Source: the human T2T-CHM13v2.0 reference genome, Homo sapiens. Taken from it: DNA of 64,000 nucleotides. Shown piece after piece: positions 33,046 to 43,906 of the stretch; the stretch's first letter is position 1; the number at the start of each line of letters is the position of its first letter. The position numbers and the translations under genes were made by a program. Below the pieces are notes generated by a model. It was given only the letters and a program-made list of their open reading frames with translations, searched no databases and was not told the origin of the DNA. The stretch is taken from assembly GCF_009914755.1 (NCBI RefSeq), contig NC_060947.1. One strand, 5' to 3'.

Positions 33046-33752
33046 AGTTATGAGTTGAATTGTGTCTCCCTCAAATTTATACATTGTAGTGGGGGTTAGG
33101 ACTGAAGAGGAAGACCCACCCTCAGGAAGACCCAGCCACAATGTTCTAATGCCCTTTGGTATCTGTTTCTGTGTTAGTTTGCTAAGGATAACAGCTTCCA
33201 ACTCCATCCATGTTTCTGCAAAGGACATGATCTCATTCCTTTTTATGGCTGCATAGTATTCCATGGTGTATATGTACCACATTTTCTTTATCCAGTCTAT
33301 CATTGATGGGCATTTAGGTTGATTCCATGTCTTTGCTATGTGAACTGTGTGTCAATGAACATATGTGTGCATGTATCTTTATAATAGAATGATTTACATA
33401 TATGTCAAAAGGGGACTTTGCAGATGTGTTTAATTGAATATGTTGAGGTGGAGAGACTATCTTGAATTATCCAGGTAAACTCAATGTAATCATGAAAGCC
33501 CTTACAGGAGTCAGAGAGAAATCTGAATTGGCTATGCTGCTGGCTTTAAATGCAAGCAGTCTCTAGAAGTTGAAAAAGAAAATGAATTCCTTCCTAGAGC
33601 CTCCAGAAGGAACAAGTCCTACCAAATCTTTGAGTATAGCCCAAAAAGACTGGCTTTAGACTTCTAGCCTCAAGCACTGTAAGATAAAACAATGTTCTTT
33701 TGAGCTACCAAATTTATGATTATTTGTTACTTCAGCAACAGGAAACATATTA
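33046..33752 (+). mobile_element. MLT1(C/D)-like MaLR LTR broken by a complex insertion
   Basis: GTTATGAGTTGAATTGTGTCTCCC start; resumes at ~33400 GGGGACTTTGCAGATG...CTAGAGCCTCCAGAAGGAAC...TTTGTTAC..CAGCAACAGGAAAC. Confidence 0.75.
33155..33400 (-). mobile_element. Internal L1 fragment (ORF2 end / 3' UTR start) with no poly-A
   Basis: Translates as IDWIKKMWYIYTMEYYAAIKRNEIMSFAETWMELEAVILSKLTQKQ (L1 ORF2 C-terminus). Confidence 0.9.
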
Positions 33753-33932
33753 ATTTACATGACAGCAACTGAACTACGTCTTTCCCTCCACAGGGGGAAG
33801 AACCTCTTTTCCTTTCCCCATGATATATTTTTCAATGTAAAACAGAAATGAATCAAAGCCACTTCTGTTTATGAAAAATCTACTCTGCTCCTTTCTGCAC
33901 ATTTCACTGGTGATTATTCTGAGAGTTAAAAG

Positions 33933-34552
33933 TTTGAACCCAAAAGTATCTGAGACAGGACTCAATCAATTTAGAAAGTTTATTTTCCAAGGTTAAGCAC
34001 GTGCCTGTGACATAGCTTCAGGAGGTCTCGATGACGTGTGCCCAAGGTGATCAGAGTAAACCCTCCATTTATATATTTTATGGAGATATAATATATCTAC
34101 CAAGACATGTAAGGTGTATGTTGGTTCGATCTGGAAAGGTGGGAGTGCTTGAAGCAGAGGCTTTCAGGTCATAGGTAGATTTAAAGATTTTCTGATTGTC
34201 AATTGGTTGCAACAGTTATTATCTAAAGACCTGAAATCAATAGAAAGGAATATCTGAGTTATGATAAGGGGTTGTGGAGCAAGGTTTTACCATGCAGATG
34301 AAGCCTCCGGGTAGCAGGCTTCAGAGAGAATACATTGTAAATGTTTCTTATCAGACTTACCATCCGTGTTTAAGTGAATGCTGGTTGGCTTTTCCAGAAT
34401 TCCAAAAGGAAGGAGGATATAATGAGCCATGTTTGATCCCACTCCCCATAATGACCTGAACTAGTTCTTCAGGTTAATTTTGGAATGCCCTTGCTGAGAG
34501 GAGGGGTCTGTTCAGATGACCGAGGGGCTCAGAATTTTATTTTTGCTCTACA
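33933..34552 (-). mobile_element. MER4-family ERV1 solo LTR
   Basis: Reverse complement begins TGTAGAGCAAAAATAAAATTCTGAGCCCC...CAAGGGCATTCCAAAATTAACCTGAAGAACTAGTTCAGG; other end ...CCTGTCTCAGATACTTTTGGGTTC. Confidence 0.75.
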
Positions 34553-34801
34553 ATGGATTAATAAATAGTGACTGGTGCATATAAATTCAGAAATGTGCAT
34601 TAATTATTATTCAGTGGTGATGCAATTATCTCATGTTCATGGGACCACTAAGTGGTGGAATCAGGGGTCAAATTTAGGCATGGGTTCCAGTGTCACATGC
34701 TTTCTATTGGCCATATGGCTTCTCTGGTTGGAAGGTTTCAACACTACCATAGTTATCCCTTTCCTACTGTATCCTTCTACTGCCTCAGCCGTCTTTCTCA
34801 G
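34118..34801 (+). repeat. Copy 1 of the 684-bp direct duplication flanking the HERV-H provirus
   Basis: Matches 40517-41200 except 9 substitutions and no indels (hand count); abuts the first base of the 5' LTR. Confidence 0.97.
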
Positions 34802-35254
34802 TGTCAGGCCTCTGAGCCCAAGCCAAGCCATCGCATCCCCTGTGACTTGCACATATATGCCCAGATGGCCTGAAGTAACTGAAGAATCACAAAAGAAGTG
34901 AATATGCCCTGCCCCACCTTAACTGATGACATTCCACCACAAAAGAAGTGTAAATGGCCGGTCCTTGCCTTAACTGATGACATTACCTTGTGAAAGTCCT
35001 TTTCCTGGCTCATCCTGGCTCAAAAAGCACCCCCACTGAGCACCTTGCAACCCCCACTCCTGCCCGCCAGGGAACAAACCCCCTTTGACTGTAATTTTCC
35101 TTTACCTACCCAAATCCTATAAAACGGCCCCACCCTTATCTTCCTTCGCTGACTCTCTTTTCGGACTCAGCCCGCCTGCACCCAGGTGAAATAAACAGCC
35201 ATGTTGCTCACACAAAGCCTGTTTGGTGGTCTCTTCACACGGACGCGCATGAAA
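34802..35254 (+). promoter_or_regulatory. 5' LTR7 (probably LTR7up-like) promoter/enhancer
   Basis: TGTCAGGCCTCTGAGCCCAAG...GGACGCGCATGAAA; TATAAAA 35118-35124; AATAAA 35190-35195; two U3 repeat units each containing ACAAAAGA (34889-34896, 34939-34946). Confidence 0.93.
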
Positions 35255-35256
35255 TT

Positions 35257-35274
35257 TGGTGCCGTAACTCGGAT
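35257..35274 (+). other. Primer-binding site complementary to tRNA-His
   Basis: TGGTGCCGTAACTCGGAT immediately after the 5' LTR, one mismatch to TGGTGCCGTGACTCGGAT. Confidence 0.93.
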
Positions 35275-35397
35275 CGGGGAACCTCTCTTGGGAGATCAAT
35301 CCCCTGTACTCCTGTTCTTTGCTCCATGAGAAAGATCCACCTATGACCTCAGGTCCTCAGACCGACCAGCCCAAGGAACATCTCACCAATTTCAAAT

Positions 35398-35406
35398 CAG
35401 GTAAGT
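35398..35406 (+). promoter_or_regulatory. HERV-H major splice donor (CAG/GTAAGT)
   Basis: Exact consensus 5' splice site ~145 nt downstream of the 5' LTR, where HERV-H chimeric transcripts typically splice. Confidence 0.7.
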
Positions 35407-36039
35407 GGCCTCTTCTTACTCTCTTCTCCAACCTCTCTGTCCCTCAACCACTTTCTCCTTTCCACTCTTCAATCTCTCCCTTCTCTTAATTTCAATTCCT
35501 TTCATTTTCTGGGAGAGACAAAGGAGAAACGTTTTATCCGTGGACCCAAAACTCCGGCGCCGGTCACAGACTGGGAAGGCAGCCTTCCCTTAGTGTTTAA
35601 TCACTGCAGGAATGCCTCTCTGATTATACACCCACGTTTCAAGGGTGTCAGACCACGCAGGGACGCCTGCCTTGGTCCTTCACCCTTAGTGGCAAGTCCC
35701 GCTTTTCTAGGGAAGGGGCAAGTACCTCAAACCCTTCTCTCCTTGTCTCTACCCCTTCTCTGCTTTTCTGGGATAGGGGCAAGTACCCCTCAACCCCTTC
35801 TCCTTCACCCTTAGCGGCAAGTCCCGCTTTTCTACGGGACAAGAACCCCCAATCCCTTATTTCCACACCCCAACCTCTTATCTCTGTGCCCCAATCCCTT
35901 ATTTACGTGCCCCAACCTCTTATCTCTGTGCCCCAATTCCTTATTTCCATGCCCCAACCCTTTCTCTGCTTTTCTGGAGGGCAAGAACCCCCAACCCCTT
36001 CTCCGTGTCTCTACTCTTTTCTCTGGCCTTGCCTCCTTC

Positions 36040-37232
36040 ACTATGGGCAAGCTTCCACCTTCCATTCCTCCTTCTTCTCCCTTAGCCTATATTCTTAAGA
36101 ACTTAAAACCTCTTCAACTCTCACCTGACCTAAAATCTAAGCATCTTATTTTCTTCTGCAATGCCGCTTGAGGCCAATACAAACTCGACAGTAGTTCCAA
36201 ATAGCCGGAAAATGGCACTTTCAATTTTTCCATCCTACAAGATCTAAATAATTCTTGTCGTAAAATGGGCAAATATGGTCTGAGGTGCCTGACGTCCAGG
36301 CATTCTTTTACACATCAGTCCCTTCCTAGTCTCTGTGCCCAGTGCAACTCGTCCCAAATCTTCCTTCTTTCCCTCCCGCCTGTCCCCTCAGTCCCAACCC
36401 CAAGCGTCGCTGAGTCTTTCTAATCTTCCTTTTCTACAGACCCATCTGACCTCTCCCCTCCTCGCCAGGCCAAGCTAGGTCCCAATTCTTCCTCAGCCTC
36501 CGCTCCTCCACCCTGTAATCTTTTTATCGCCTCCCCTCCTCACACCTGGTCCGGCTTACAGTTTCGTTCAGTGACTAGCCCTCCCCCACCTGCCCAGCAA
36601 TTTACTCTTAAAAAGGTGGCTGGAGCCAAAGGCATAGTCAAGGTTAATGCTCCTTTTTCTTTATCCCAAATCAGAAGCGTTTAGGTTCTTTTTCATCAAA
36701 TATAAAAACCCAGCCCAGTTCATGGCTCATTCGGCAGCAACCCTGAGACGCTTTACAGCCCTAGACCCTAAAAGGTCAAAAGGCCATCTTATTCTCAATA
36801 TACATTTTATTACCCAATCTGCTCCCGACATTAAATAAAACTCCAAAAATTAGAATCTGGCCCTCAAACCCCACAACAGGACTTAATTAACCTCACCTTC
36901 AAGGTGTACAATAATAAAAAAAAAAGTTGCAATTCCTTCCCTCCACTGTGAGACAAACCCCAGCCACATCTCCAGCACACAAGAACTTCCAAACGCCTGA
37001 ACCGCAGCGGCCAGGCGTTCCTCCAGAACCTCCTCCCCCAGGAGCTTGCTACAAGTGCCAGAAATCTGGCCACCAGGCCAAAGAATGCCTGCAGCCCAGG
37101 ATTCCTCCTAAGCCGTGTCCCATCTGTGCGGGACCCCACTGGAAATCGGACTGTTCAACTCACCTGGCAGCCACTCCCAGAGCCCCTGGAACTCTGGCCC
37201 AAGGCTCTCTGACTGACTCCTTCTCGGCTTAG
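36040..37232 (+). pseudogene. gag: HERV-H gag remnant with two nucleocapsid zinc knuckles
   Basis: ORF 36927-37232 contains CYKCQKSGHQAKEC and CPICAGPHWKSDC; upstream part disrupted; start approximate. Confidence 0.85.
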
Positions 37233-37282
37233 CGGCTGAAGACTGACGCTGCCTGATCGCCTTGGAAGCCCCGTAGACCATC

Positions 37283-37620
37283 ATGGACGCCGAGCTTCAG
37301 GTAACTCTCACAGTGGAAGGTAAGTCCGTCCCCTTCTTAATCAATATGGAGGCTACCCACTCCGCATTACCTTCCTTTCAAAGGCCTGTTTCCCTTGCCT
37401 CCATAACTGTTGTAGGTATTGACAGCCAGGCTTCTAAACCTCTTAAAACTCCCCCACTCTGGTGCCAACTTAGACAATACTCTTTTACGCACTCCTTTTT
37501 AGTTATCCCCACCTGCCCAGTTCCCTTATTAGGCCGAGACACTTTAACTAAATTATCTGCTTCCCTGACTACTCCTGGATTACACCTGCATCTCATTGCT
37601 GCCCTTCTTCCCAATCCAGA
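37283..37620 (+). pseudogene. pro: HERV-H protease remnant, catalytic motif lost
   Basis: VEGKSVPFLINMEATHS (DTG position degenerate) ...PTCPVPLLGRDTLTKL. Confidence 0.85.
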
Positions 37621-37689
37621 GCCTCCTTTGCGTCCTCCTCTTGTATCCCCCACCTTAACCCACAAGTATAAGATACCTCTACTCCCTCC

Positions 37690-39470
37690 TTGGCGACCGA
37701 TCAAGCACGCCTTACCATCTCATTAAAACCTAATCACCCTTACGCCGCTCAACGCCAATATCTCATCCCACAGCATGCTTTGAAAGGATTAAAGCCTGTT
37801 ATCACTCGCCTGCTACAGCATGGGCTTTTAAAACCTATAAACTCTCCTTACCATTCCCCCATTTTACCTGTCCTAAAACCAGACAAGCCTTACAAGTTAG
37901 TTCAGAATCTGCGCCTTATCAACCAAATGTTTTGCCTATCCACCCCGTGGTGCCAAACCCATATACTCTTCTATCCTCAATACCTCCCTCTACTACCCAT
38001 TATTCTGTTCTGGATCTCAAACATGCTTTCTTTACTATTCCTTTGCACCCTTCATCCCAGCCTCCCTTTGCTTTCACTTAGACTGACCCTGACACCCATT
38101 AGGCTCAGCAAATTACCTGGGCTGTACTGCCGCAAGGCTTCACAGACAGCCCCCATTACTTCAGTCAAGCCCAAATTTCATCCTCATCTGTTACCTATCT
38201 GGGCATAATTCTCATAAAAACACAGGTGCTCTCCCTGCTGATCATGTCCGAATAATCTCCCAAACCTCAATCCCTTACAAAACAACAACTCCTTTCCTTC
38301 CTAGGCATGGTTAGCGTGGTCGGAATTCTTACACAATAGCCAGGACCACACCGTGTAGCCTTTCTGTCCAAACAACTTGACCTTACTGTTTTAGCCTAGC
38401 CCTCATGTCTGCCTGCAGCAGCTGCCACTGCTTTAATATTTTTAGAGGCCCTCAAAATCACAAACTATGCTCAACTCACTCTCTACATTTCTCATAACTT
38501 CCAAAATCTATTTTCTTCCTCATACCTGACGCATATACTTTCTGCTTCCCGGCTCCTTCAGCTGTACTCACTCTTTGTTAAGTCCCACAATTACCATTGT
38601 TCCTGGCCCGGACTTCAATCCGGCCTCCCACATTATTCCTGATACCACACCTGACCCCCATGACTGTATCTCTCTGATCCACCTGACATTCACCCCATTT
38701 CCCCAAATTTCCGTCTTTCCTGTTCCTCACCCTGATCACGCTTGATTTATTGATGGTGGTTCCACCAGGCCTAATCACCACACACCAGCAAAGGCAGGCT
38801 ATGCTATAGTACAAGCCACTAGCCCGCCTCTTAGAACCTCTCGTTTCCTTTCCATCGTGGAAATCTATCCTCAAGGAAATAACTTCTCAGTGTTCCATCT
38901 GCTATTCTACTACTCCTCAGGGATTATTCAGGCCCCGTCCCTTCCCTACACATCAGGCTCGAGGATTTGCCCCCACCCAGGACTGGCAAATTAGCTTTAC
39001 TCAACATGCCCAGAGTCAGGAAACTAAAATACCTCTTAGTCTAGGTAGACACTTTCACTGGATAGGTACAGGCCTTTCCTACAGGGTCTGAGAAGGCCAC
39101 CGCAGTCATTTCTTCCCTTCTGTCAGACATAATTCCTCAGTTTAGCCTTCCCACCTCTATACCGTCTGATAACAGACCAGCCTTTATTAGTCAAATCAGC
39201 CAAGCAGTTTTTCAGGCTCTTAGTATTCAGTGAAACCTTTATATCCCTTATAGTCCTCCATCTTCAAGAAAAGTAGAACGGACTAAAGGTCTTTTAAAAA
39301 CACACCTCACCAAGCTCAGCCACCAACTTAAAAAGGACTGGACAATACTTTTACCACTTTCCCTTCTCAGAAATCAGGCCTGTCCTCAGAATGCTACAGG
39401 GTACAGCCCATTTGAGCTCCTGTATAGATGCTCCTTTTTATTAGGCCCCAGTCTCATTCCAGACACCAGA
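37690..39470 (+). pseudogene. pol: HERV-H pol remnant (RT, RNase H, integrase; frameshifted and deleted)
   Basis: [26 protein letters not shown], then [12 protein letters not shown] and LPQGFTDSP in a shifted frame; integrase-like sequence with stops; end approximate. Confidence 0.88.
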
Positions 39471-40057
39471 CCAACTTAGACTGTGCCCCCCACCAAAAAA
39501 AAACTTGTCATCCCTACTATCTTCTGTCTAGTCATACTCCTATTCACCGTTCTCAACTACTCATACATGCCCTGCTCTTGTTTACACTGCCGGTTTACAC
39601 TGTTTCTCCAAGCCATCACAGCTGATATCTCCTGGTGCTATCCCCAAACTGCCACTCTTAACTCTTGAAGTAAATAAATAATCTTTGCTGGCAGGACTAT
39701 GCCGAATCTCCTTAGGCACTCTCTAATCAGATGTCCTAGGTCCTCCCAATTCTTAGACCTTTTATACCTGTTTTTCTCCTTCTCTTATTCCATTTAGTTT
39801 TTCAATTCATACAAAACCGTATCCAGGCCATCACCAATCATTCTATACGACAAATGTTTCTTCTAACATCCCCACAATATCACCCCTTACCACAAGACCT
39901 CCCTTCAGCTTAATCTCTCCCACTCTAGGCTCCCACGCCGCCCCTAATCCCACTCGAAGCAGCCCTGAGAAACATCGCCCATTCTCTCTCCATACCACCC
40001 CCCAAAAATTTTCACCACCCCAACACTTCAACACTATTTTGTTTTATTTTTCTTATT

Positions 40058-40070
40058 AAGAAGGCAGGAA
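40058..40070 (+). other. Polypurine tract
   Basis: AAGAAGGCAGGAA directly before the TG of the 3' LTR. Confidence 0.85.
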
Positions 40071-40519
40071 TGTCAGGCCTCTGAGCCCAAGCCAAGCCAT
40101 CGCATCCCCTGTGACTTGCACATATATGCCCAGATGGCCTGAAGTAACTGAAGAATCACAAAAGAAGTGAAAATGCCCTGCCCCACCTTAACTGATGACA
40201 TTCCACCACAAAAGAAGTGTAAATGGCCGGTCCTTGCCTTAACTGATGACATTACCTTGTGAAAGTCCTTTTCCTGGCTCATCTTGGCTCAAAAACACCC
40301 CCACTGAGCACCTCGCAACCCCCACTCCTGCCCGCCAGAGAACAAACCCCCTTTGACTGTAATTTTCCTTTACCTACCCAAATCCTATAAAACGGCCCCA
40401 CCGTTATCTCCCTTCGCTGACTCTCTTTTCGGACTCAGCCCGCCTGCACCCAGGTGAAATAAACAGCCATGTTGCTCACACAAAGCCTGTTTGGTGGTCT
40501 CTTCACACGGACGCGCATG
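40071..40519 (+). promoter_or_regulatory. 3' LTR7 lacking the terminal AAA
   Basis: 6 substitutions and one 1-bp indel vs the 5' LTR; AATAAA 40458-40463; ends GGACGCGCATG then host sequence. Confidence 0.95.
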
Positions 40520-41200
40520 TTGGCTCAATCTGGAAAGGTGGGAGTGCTTGAAGCAGAGGCTTTCAGGTCATAGGTAGATTTAAAGATTTTGTGATTGTCA
40601 ATTGGTTGCAACAGTTATTATCTAAAGACCTGAAATCAATAGAAAGGAATATCTGGGTTATGATAAGGGGTTGTGGAGCAAGGTTTTACCATGCAGATGA
40701 AGCCTCCGGGTAGCAGGCTTCAGAGAGAATACATTGTAAATGTTTCTTATCAGACTTACCATCCGTGTTTAAGTGAATGCTGGTTGGCTTTTCCAGAATT
40801 CCAAAAGGAAGGAGGATATAATGAGCCATGTTTGATCCCACTCCCCATAATGACCTGAACTAGTTCTTCAGGTTAATTTTGGAATGCCCTTGCTGAGAGG
40901 AGGGGTCTGTTCAGATGACCGAGGGGCTCAGAATTTTATTTTTGCTCTACAATGGATTAGTAAGTAGTGACTGGTGCATATAAATTCAGAAATGTGCATT
41001 AATTATTATTCAGTGGTGATGCAATTATCTCATGTTCATGGGACCATTAAATGGTGGAATCAGGGGTCAAATTTAGGCATGGGTTCCAGTGTCACATGCT
41101 TTCTATTGGCCATATGGCTTCTCTGGTTGGAAGGTTTCAACACTACCATAGTTATCCCTTTCCTACTGTATCCTTCTACTGCCTCAGCCTTCTTTCTCAG
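40517..41200 (+). repeat. Copy 2 of the 684-bp duplication (includes a partial MER4-family LTR, 40517-40951)
   Basis: Offset 6399 from copy 1; its first 3 bases (ATG) are shared with the LTR end. Confidence 0.97.
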
Positions 41201-42147
41201 AGTGTGCCCCATAAGTTTCTGAATGAGACTGATTCTCACTACCATTAAGTTAGAAGGGTCTCTCCTACAAACGTGCTTACCCCAAAGAGGGTCCCTTTTC
41301 AGCAGAGTAGCTCTAGAGGGAATCATCACAATGCTTGGTTAGCGTGTTCTGCCCTTTGCTTTTTTGCATGGAAAATTTTAAATGTGAGTGATCCTGGAGC
41401 TTGCAGTCTTGACTGGTTCACTCGTTAGTATCCGAGAGAGATCAGATACTCTGCCCTCCATTCTAAGGCCTAGGGCTATGTTTGACGAAACCAAAATAAT
41501 AGTCCAACGTTTCTTGATTGTCAATTTTCTCCCAGTAATAGTGTTTAAAAAGTAGTGACTAAGTAATCCAAATAATGAGGACAAGATTATTAATAGTTGG
41601 TATTGTTAATGTAAAATGTTAATGATCTTAGAAGTTCTGCAAATTCTCTTATGGAGATGTGTCAATGTACATTTGAAGATGGTGAAATTCAGTAAGGCCA
41701 AGATATCAGAGCTGGGAAATGGAAAGTGTTCATCAAAGGTCTGGGGGTGGCAGTTATTCGCATCCTGTTCTTTATTCTTTCGAGTTAAAATTCAGGCACT
41801 GACAATTCCAGGATAAAAATCTATTTCTCCTTACATATAAATCAGCCATGATTATTCTTAACTAGGAACAGCCAGGGTGTGTGCATAATCATTTAAATTG
41901 AGAGCTGAATAATGGATCTTGATTAGCAATACATTGAAGCAAATGTGGGGGAGAAATTAGAGTGCTTCTCTGTTTGTTTCATGCCTAGAATATATTAACT
42001 TTGGGGAAATGGCCCATTTTTACAGATGAGCTCAGGAAATACTCCATATGATTCAGGATTCTTTTTCCCAAAGTATTATTTCGCAATGCAGACATCAATA
42101 GTGGTGTATTAGCTGAGGTTTAGAAAGGACAAAGATAGATTATTGAA

Positions 42148-42282
42148 ATTTTCTTTTTGTAGGTACAGAGTAGGTTTATATATTTATGGACTGCATGAGA
42201 TATGTTGATACAGGCATGCCATGCATTATAAACACATCATGGAAAATGGAGTATCCATCCCCTCAAGCATGTATCCTTTTTA
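42148..42282 (-). mobile_element. Short L1MA 3' end
   Basis: TTTTTGTAGGTACAGAGTAGG...GATACAGGCATG...ATGGAGTATCCATCCCCTCAAGCAT. Confidence 0.75.
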
Positions 42283-42391
42283 ATTCAGGATACCATTTTC
42301 CTAATATTCTGTAATACTTTATTGTTGGGTTATTTTCAAAGGCTTATTAAGATCTTAACTTACACTCCCATCTTTTGTTTAAATTGATGGC

Positions 42392-42739
42392 TGTATTAGT
42401 CGGTTTTCAAACTGCTATAAAGATATATCTGGGACTGGGTAATTTATAAAGGAAAGAGGCTTAATTGAATCACAGCTCTGCATGGCTGGAGAGGCTGCAG
42501 GAAACTTACAATCATGGTGCAAGGGGAAGCAAGCACATCTTCCATGGTGGCAGGAGAGAGAGGAGCAACAGTAGGGAAACCTGCCTTATAAAACCATCAG
42601 ATCTCATGAAAACTCACTCACTGTCACACTACAGCATGGAGGAAACTGGCCCCATGATCCAATCACCTCCCTCCCTTAACACGTGGGGATTACAATTCGA
42701 GGTGAGATTTGGGTGGGGACACAGAGCCAAGCCATATCC
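42392..42739 (-). mobile_element. MST-type MaLR solo LTR (MSTA-like)
   Basis: TGTATTAGTC...GACTGGGTAATTTATAAAGGAAAGAGG...GAGATTTGGGTGGGGACACAGAGCCAAGCCATATC. Confidence 0.88.
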
Positions 42740-43906
42740 ATGAACGATGGAATAACGTAATTATTTAGAAACAGCAAATTGTGTGGTGTAATGGTATTAC
42801 TTTGCATTGGTTCATTTGGAAAGAACCATCAATGTATGCACTTCAATGAAGATATTAATTGTTCATATATTAATAGTTTCTGGATGCATTTCGTTCATAT
42901 AAATCTTTAGTAGAACTCTATTTGTGGATGAATGTATTTTTTATGGAGTTTAAAGTATATTTATTTTTATATTTAAACTTTATTAGCAACATCCCCCAGA
43001 AAACAGAATATTTCCTACAAATCTGTCCCAGCAGCAGAAAATATGGAGTGTCTTTGTACACATAGAAAGTATGTAAATGTTATGGTGAGATCTTACTAAT
43101 GAAGAATGATGTTTTTATGGCATGACAAGGCAAATATGTAAGAAAAGATAAGAAGATGTTATATGTTTTGTGCCAAATGTGTTAATAATCCTGATGTTAG
43201 ACCACAGAGGAAGAAGATGTCATATGACAGGGTATAGAGAGTTGATAGATATACCTCACTAGAAAAGAAAGGAAGGTTTATTTAGGGGTAGAATAAAGGA
43301 AAGTCTAGGATGCTGCAGAATGAAATCAGCTATTGATGGATGTACTTTAAGGATAGTAGATGATTGTATAGGCATGGGGAAAAAGAGGGAATTAATGATG
43401 CATTAAAGAAAAGTTAAAAATTTTTAAAAATATGAATTAATTTATAGAGTCCCTACTATGTGCTATAAAGAATATTTTTCATTTAAGAGAAACAAATAAG
43501 AAAAATATGAAAAGGAAAATCTATACCCCATGGCTGTAAGAATGCATTAAATTTCACTGATATAGTTCTCCCTTGGGTTTTATGCTGAGAATTCTTAAGG
43601 GAAAAAATCTCATTAATACATTTTGAAAATCTTGCATTATCTATAGTAACTCCTTATAGATTAAATGTTCATGTTTTCTCTTCCTTTTTCACTCTTCTCA
43701 CATCCCAAATTTCTCTCTTTTTTCTGTTAGATGCTATCTCTTCCTGATTGTTGATTTCCGCCTTCATATCCCAAAAGCCCTGCTTCAATCTTCCATTTGA
43801 ATCTTAATTGAATTCACATAAGACTAAGTGAATCTCACATTCACCTTAAGAAACGTCAAAACACTAAAATGTAAAAATGCTAATTACCATGTGATTGTAT
43901 GAGTCA

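What the first reader, a model, noticed from the sequence alone, without database searches (positions are those of the whole stretch)
40509..40530. 3' LTR is clipped by 3 nt, joins host DNA by ATG microhomology, and its U5 end lacked the canonical CA
Seen: the 5' LTR ends ...GGACGCGCATGAAA followed by TT and the PBS. The 3' LTR ends ...GGACGCGCATG and runs into TTGGCTCAATC. The host copy reads GTGTATGTTGG (ATG at 34118-34120), so ATG is shared. Established: integrase 3'-processing depends on a subterminal CA. Inference: the GAAA end was a poor substrate and was resolved by microhomology-mediated joining. Caveat: GAAA ends are common in HERV-H as I recall, so they can at most predispose to this outcome.
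Basis: partly seen in the sequence, partly recalled or inferred. Interest (0 to 1): 0.7.

Follow-up and report, generated by a model that had tools for sequence, protein, structure and literature searches.

The report
One-ended HERV-H insertion, 681-base duplication
This ancient human retrovirus copy has one clean end and one end shortened by 3 bases, and sits between two copies of 681 bases of host DNA, likely because the viral enzyme inserted only one end and host repair joined the other; its odd "AA" end is the normal end for this family, so it is likely not the cause.

Summary
The HERV-H provirus (34802-40519) has a 5' LTR ending GAAA-TT-PBS and a 3' LTR clipped by 3 nt, joined through a shared ATG. 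The finding omits the main feature: host 34121-34801 is duplicated at 40520-41200 (681 bp). The chrY homologue shows a single-copy empty site, and the duplication is as old as the LTR pair (1.32% vs 1.34%). This is the anatomy of known one-ended aberrant retroviral integration.

The GAAA explanation is not supported. GAAA is the family norm (898 vs 85 GACA), and 20 of 25 GAAA-ended elements have perfect 5-bp duplications. Clipped ends are rare and show no significant U5 excess (9/1621 vs 4/1428, p=0.28; low power, so a modest bias is not excluded).

Four more HERV-H proviruses have a clipped end and a 301-850 bp duplication. In one, the GAAA end is clean and the canonical U3 end is the clipped one. 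Verdict: a new natural example of a known process. The side results are a small class of long-duplication HERV-H fossils and routine integration of non-CA ends.

The parts
34118..34120 (+). Host ATG, the 3-nt homology shared with the clipped U5 end
   Evidence: continuous with upstream host DNA in the chrY homologue
34121..34801 (+). Left (original-position) copy of the 681-bp host duplication
34121..34552 (.). Part of an older interspersed repeat in which the repair joint lies (MER4-like by recall; family name not tested)
   Evidence: 37 other genomic matches at 77-83% over about query 1-432; one search shows paralogues running through the joint
34802..35254 (+). 5' LTR (LTR7 type, 453 nt); clean TG start with no homology to the host continuation; ends TGAAA
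35255..35274 (+). TT dinucleotide and primer-binding site (tRNA-His type by recall)
   Evidence: the same context follows 5' LTRs elsewhere
35275..40070 (+). HERV-H internal region ending in the polypurine tract (40058-40070); coding content not analysed
40071..40519 (+). 3' LTR (449 nt), lacking the last 3 nt seen in the 5' LTR; 6 substitutions and 1 gap against the 5' LTR
40517..40519 (+). ATG shared by the LTR end and the host: the aberrant joint
40520..41200 (+). Right (new) copy of the 681-bp duplication, continuing seamlessly into downstream host DNA

Best explanation
This HERV-H provirus has one clean end, one end clipped by 3 nt and a 681-bp host duplication, and it likely arose by one-ended integration in which integrase joined the U3 end and host repair joined the U5 end. 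Inferred steps: the free U5 3' end lost 3 nt, paired through ATG with host DNA 681 bp upstream of the integrase joint, primed host synthesis across that stretch, and was resolved into the chromosome, leaving A-B-provirus-B-C. The template could have been the same chromatid, the sister or the empty homologue. The failure was likely a sporadic loss of concerted joining, which can hit either end, and not a consequence of the GAAA terminus, which this family integrates routinely.
For: Shown: 681-bp duplication with both breakpoints at the provirus ends. Single-copy empty site in the chrY homologue, 87-88% identical and continuous with both flanks. Equal divergence of the LTR pair (6/449) and the duplication (9/681), p=1. 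Clean U3 joint. Four more HERV-H loci with this anatomy: C3:173.6 Mb 301 bp, C19:38.8 Mb ~850 bp, C18:35.4 Mb ~650 bp, C8:105.4 Mb ~840 bp; duplication and LTR divergences did not differ significantly in the three tested, though C3 gave p=0.08. Literature: PMC5041404 (Discussion read; passage) describes truncated ends, short homology and duplications of hundreds to thousands of bp. PMC2857682 (passages) reports 1 of 15 XMRV proviruses with a 273-bp duplication and a 5-bp clipped U3 end. GAAA integrates normally: 20 of 25 perfect TSDs, and one provirus with GAAG in both LTRs has a perfect 5-bp TSD.
Against: A 3-nt homology occurs by chance at about 5% of joints, and the C3 joint shows none. All 5 long-duplication proviruses are GAAA type, though this is expected at p=0.31-0.64. 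Irregular U5 ends outnumber U3 ends about 2:1 in rate (0.56% vs 0.28%, not significant). The C8 locus is clipped at both ends, which a simple one-ended model does not explain. No ape orthologues could be examined. The TSD samples were selected on an intact end, so they cannot themselves measure failure rate.
Confidence: 0.75

Rival explanations
1. One reading: the same one-ended route, but the GAAA end is a somewhat poorer integrase substrate and predisposes U5 to fail.
For: 4 of 5 long-duplication loci have a clipped U5 end and 2 of 5 a clipped U3 end. Irregular ends are 9/1621 at U5 vs 4/1428 at U3. CA loss lowers concerted integration in other retroviruses (PMC2857682 passage).
Against: Differences are not significant (p=0.19-1.0). 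GAAA is 79-91% of ends. 20 of 25 have perfect TSDs. At C18 the GAAA end is clean and U3 is clipped. A CA-ended virus shows the same anatomy.
Confidence: 0.12
2. Normal integration followed soon after by a microhomology-mediated rearrangement: a template switch at the 3' LTR end or a crossover with the still-segregating empty allele duplicated B.
For: It gives the same final structure. The ATG, and the 5-bp TSD as a return point, would supply homology. Equal ages resolve only millions of years. Kahyo et al. raise 'pseudo-TSD' models (PMC5488345 Discussion).
Against: It needs a breakpoint within 3-21 nt of a provirus end at 5 independent loci, which is unlikely unless tied to integration.
Confidence: 0.09
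3. Insertion between pre-existing tandem duplicates, or joining of the unprocessed TT end to host TT followed by a later 3-nt deletion.
For: The unprocessed viral end would carry TT, and the host copy begins TT.
Against: The chrY empty site has one copy. Duplicate and LTR ages match. The upstream ATG match would have to be a coincidence.
Confidence: 0.04

Closest known systems
Aberrant one-ended retroviral integration (ASLV/RSV end mutants; HIV-1 with integrase inhibitors or weakened integrase; PMC5041404, Discussion read in full plus passages)
   Same: One normal end, one truncated end with short homology, host duplication of hundreds of bp.
   Different: A germline fossil fixed in the human reference, with no drug or engineered defect; the end sequence is the family norm.
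XMRV clone C-3 (PMC2857682, passages read)
   Same: Gammaretrovirus provirus with a few-nt clipped end and a 273-bp duplication among otherwise normal sites.
   Different: Clipped end is U3; somatic infection in culture; the virus has CA ends.
HERV-K (HML-2) long TSDs (PMC5488345; abstract, Background, part of Methods and Discussion read)
   Same: Human ERVs flanked by long host duplications (111 and 250 bp shown, 450 bp putative).
   Different: Here HERV-H and up to ~850 bp. That paper's search was limited to 500 bp, and its main text has no occurrence of 'integrase', 'microhomolog' or 'aberrant'. Its supplements were not read.
TARE1 tomato LTR retrotransposon (PMC3701649, abstract only)
   Same: A family that amplified with a non-canonical terminal dinucleotide.
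   Different: Copia element, altered 5' end (TA); here a retrovirus-derived family with an altered 3' end (AA).

Membership tests
HERV-H / LTR7 provirus | Paired LTR7-type LTRs of about 450 nt | tested here: met
   by eye the 5' LTR matches the LTR7up-type sequence printed in PMC8912925
HERV-H / LTR7 provirus | tRNA-His PBS after the 5' LTR and PPT before the 3' LTR | tested here: met
   same motifs at other loci; the His assignment is recalled, not aligned to a tRNA
HERV-H / LTR7 provirus | gag-pol(-env) remnants in the internal region | not tested
   internal region not analysed
Normal concerted integration | Both LTR ends intact with a 4-6 bp TSD | tested here: not met
   3-nt clip and 681-bp duplication; family norm is 5 bp
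One-ended aberrant integration | One clean integrase-type joint | tested here: met
   U3 joint at 34801/34802 starts at TG with no homology to the host continuation
One-ended aberrant integration | Other end truncated with short homology to the appended DNA | tested here: met
   3-nt clip, shared ATG; chance about 5%
One-ended aberrant integration | Host duplication or deletion created at the time of integration | tested here: inconclusive
   Single-copy empty site on chrY and equal divergences fit, but the resolution is millions of years; no ape orthologues available
Bad-end (non-CA) driven aberrant integration | The aberrant end carries a sequence that integrase handles poorly | tested here: not met
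   GAAA is the majority end with normal TSDs; no significant U5 excess; C18 counterexample
Bad-end (non-CA) driven aberrant integration | Reduced processing or strand transfer in vitro | not testable with these tools
   needs a bench assay

The most novel reading that the evidence does not exclude
HERV-H is a large retroviral family whose integrase routinely joined a non-CA (AA-3') U5 end with exact 5-bp duplications. At least about 0.5% of its insertions are fossils of one-ended integration with 300-850 bp host duplications, longer than those I found reported for human ERVs, and biased about two-fold to the non-canonical end. The human genome would then hold a natural, countable assay of how much the 'invariant' CA matters in the germline.
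Probability: 0.25. Interest if true: 0.55.

Novelty: new member of a known kind. Interest (0 to 1): 0.33.

Why it matters
The mechanism is known from experimental retroviruses, and long duplications are known for HERV-K. What this adds is five HERV-H germline examples reaching about 850 bp, and direct counts showing that most LTR7-type ends are AA rather than CA yet integrate precisely. Long flanking duplicates can recombine out a provirus and mimic a pre-integration allele (raised in PMC5488345), so these loci matter for calls of ERV polymorphism. TG...CA and short-TSD filters would miss them.

Tried and rejected
1. GAAA as a rare or defective end: rejected.
2. Integrase cutting at the internal CA 5 nt upstream: rejected as the norm, because TSDs abut the GAAA.
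3. Pre-existing tandem duplication or assembly artefact: rejected. chrY has one copy, and substitutions fall on both copies (by chrY and paralogue states, about 5 left and 4 right).
4. Templated joint: two of the right-copy changes lie within 8 nt of the joint and create an 8-mer present in the LTR. Chance is about 3% (18 of 594). This is post hoc, and one change is a CpG transition shared with chrY, so it is left unexplained.
5. Clipped or irregular ends where no long duplication was found in the DNA fetched: L073, L081, L083, L133, L136. No partner LTR was found for L075 or L138. L079 (inversion) was not followed.
6. Candidates that proved to be indels, internal deletions or had a normal TSD: L074, L078, L080, L084, L131, L132, L134, L135, L137, L139.
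7. Four primary papers (three on RSV, one on HIV with raltegravir: PMC1317513, PMC2573277, PMC2224354, PMC3767498) were not held; only their titles were seen in a reference list.
8. Nine completed paper searches showed no listing on this locus, on HERV-H long duplications or on the AA end. Word finds in PMC6298018, PMC8912925, PMC2664473, PMC12228294 and bioRxiv 10.64898/2026.06.24.734183 also showed none. Older subscription papers and repeat-database consensus records were not searchable, and no supplements were read.

Full report
Observation. The 5' LTR (34802-35254) ends GAAA, then TT and the PBS. The 3' LTR (40071-40519) stops 3 nt earlier, and its last three bases, ATG, equal host 34118-34120. 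What the finding leaves out is that the DNA after the joint (40520-41200) is a second copy of the 681 bp lying immediately before the 5' LTR (34121-34801), with 9 substitutions and no gaps. The U3 joint is clean: host ...CTCAG then TG, with no homology to the host continuation.

Empty site and age. A chrY homologue (L033, 87-88% identical) aligns continuously with window 33155-34804 and with 40517-42743, holds one copy of the segment and has no provirus at the site. The original order was therefore A-B-C, and it is now A-B-provirus-B-C. The joint lies inside an older interspersed repeat whose paralogues run through it. The LTRs differ at 6 of 449 sites and the duplicates at 9 of 681, p=1. Pooled, that is 5-11 Myr under mutation rates I assumed. 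This fits the African-ape expansion of the youngest LTR7 subfamilies (PMC8912925 passage); the subfamily was judged by eye only.

Is GAAA a poor end? With one 24-nt anchor tolerant of CpG decay, the genome holds 898 GAAA and 85 GACA ends. With a second anchor, the first 100 of 1621 rows were 79 GAAA and 21 GACA by my count. Among solo LTRs, 10 GAAA loci are 7 independent insertions (four are copies of one); 6 of 7 have a perfect 5-bp TSD and one has 4 of 5. Of 12 loci the script called GACA solos, I dropped 3 as misclassified proviral LTRs; 6 of the 9 left are perfect and 3 match 3 of 5. On C1, 23 automatic pairings were cut to 20 by removing one mispaired solo and merging a tandem cluster. 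Of 18 GAAA two-LTR elements, 14 are perfect, one matches 4 of 5, one has a 4-bp TSD, one matches after a 10-nt extra stretch, and one (the tandem cluster) is unresolved; the 2 GACA elements match 3 and 4 of 5. In total 20 of 25 GAAA and 6 of 11 GACA are perfect, p=0.22; the GACA copies look older. A C4 provirus with GAAG in both LTRs also has a perfect TSD, although gene conversion could explain that single case. These samples were chosen on an intact end, so they show that AA ends integrate precisely, not how often they fail.

How often, and at which end, do joints fail? Mirror-image patterns pulled out ends departing from the terminus: U5, 18 and 54 rows; U3, 29 and 51 rows; against 1621 and 1428 intact ends. 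Apart from this locus I fetched 8 of 18, 11 of 54, 4 of 29 and 1 of 51 rows. The rest were judged by eye from the 43-45 nt match as indels or one- or two-base variants. That includes 30 last-base variants (21 GAA-, 9 GAC-, not skewed to GAAA, p=0.33), 28 of them not followed. Four more proviruses with a clipped end and a long duplication emerged, all with a GAAA 5' LTR. C3:173.6 Mb has U5 clipped by about 14 nt, 301 bp and no homology. C19:38.8 Mb has U5 clipped by 5 nt, about 850 bp and a 3-nt homology. C18:35.4 Mb has U3 clipped by about 20 nt, a clean GAAA end and about 650 bp. C8:105.4 Mb has both ends clipped and about 840 bp. Pattern-found ends with a long duplication number 3/1621 at U5 and 2/1428 at U3 (p=1). 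All irregular host-side ends number 9 vs 4 (p=0.28), or 10 vs 4 with the C8 U5 end found through its partner (p=0.19). Five of five being GAAA is expected at p=0.31-0.64. The census is incomplete. It misses mutated anchors, clips beyond about 25 nt, clips whose last host base mimics the terminus (the C8 U5 end was missed this way), unclipped long duplications, and duplications beyond the 0.8-1.7 kb examined. Five in roughly 1000-1200 proviruses (count from the PMC12228294 passage) gives a lower bound near 0.5%.

Mechanism. Shown: the anatomy, the single-copy empty site, equal ages and recurrence. Inferred: integrase joined U3; the free U5 3' end was trimmed, primed host synthesis at the ATG 681 bp upstream, and was resolved into the chromosome. 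This is the model set out for ASLV and HIV in PMC5041404 (Discussion read). A CA-ended gammaretrovirus gave the same outcome in 1 of 15 sites (PMC2857682 passages), so no special end is needed. Rivals are a mild GAAA predisposition (0.12), rearrangement soon after a normal integration (0.09), and insertion into an older duplication or a later deletion (0.04).

Novelty. The process is known, and long flanking duplications are known for HML-2: 111 and 250 bp shown, 450 bp putative, in a search limited to 500 bp (PMC5488345). My nine completed searches showed nothing on this locus, on HERV-H long duplications or on the AA end. The primary RSV papers were not held; one title states that CA is not required at the U3 end. 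Repeat databases were not searchable, and I recall the AA end being in the LTR7 consensus. Supplements were not read.

Noticed in passing
L076/L085 (C3:173.6 Mb), L151/L086 (C19:38.8 Mb), L152/L149 (C18:35.4 Mb), L150/L090 (C8:105.4 Mb): Four more HERV-H proviruses flanked by 301, ~850, ~650 and ~840 bp host duplications with clipped LTR ends; C8 is clipped at both ends.
   Followed up: yes
L143/L144 (C4:24.48 Mb): Provirus whose two LTRs both end GAAG and which has a perfect 5-bp TSD, hinting that even the terminal A may be dispensable (or gene conversion).
   Followed up: partly
window 40524 and 40527: Two right-copy changes lie within 8 nt of the joint and create an 8-mer also present in the LTR (from 35016); possibly error-prone or templated repair, about 3% by chance, post hoc.
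   Followed up: partly
L141/L142 (C1:54.9 Mb): 3' LTR followed by a 10-nt PBS-like extra stretch ending again in the LTR terminus, then the normal 5-bp TSD.
   Followed up: partly
window 34613-35119: The RefSeq enhancer spans the end of the left duplicate and the 5' LTR U3; its host part is duplicated at 41012-41200.
   Followed up: no
L075 (C10:58.9 Mb), L079 (C2:185.2 Mb): One clipped LTR end runs into what looks like a different LTR family (LTR2-like by recall); another runs into inverted LTR sequence.
   Followed up: partly
G000:C1:72.81-72.83 Mb: Tandem cluster with four same-strand LTR starts within 13 kb; the outer flanks do not form a TSD.
   Followed up: no
window 35676-36000: Short 21-44 nt repeats in the HERV-H leader region.
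   Followed up: no
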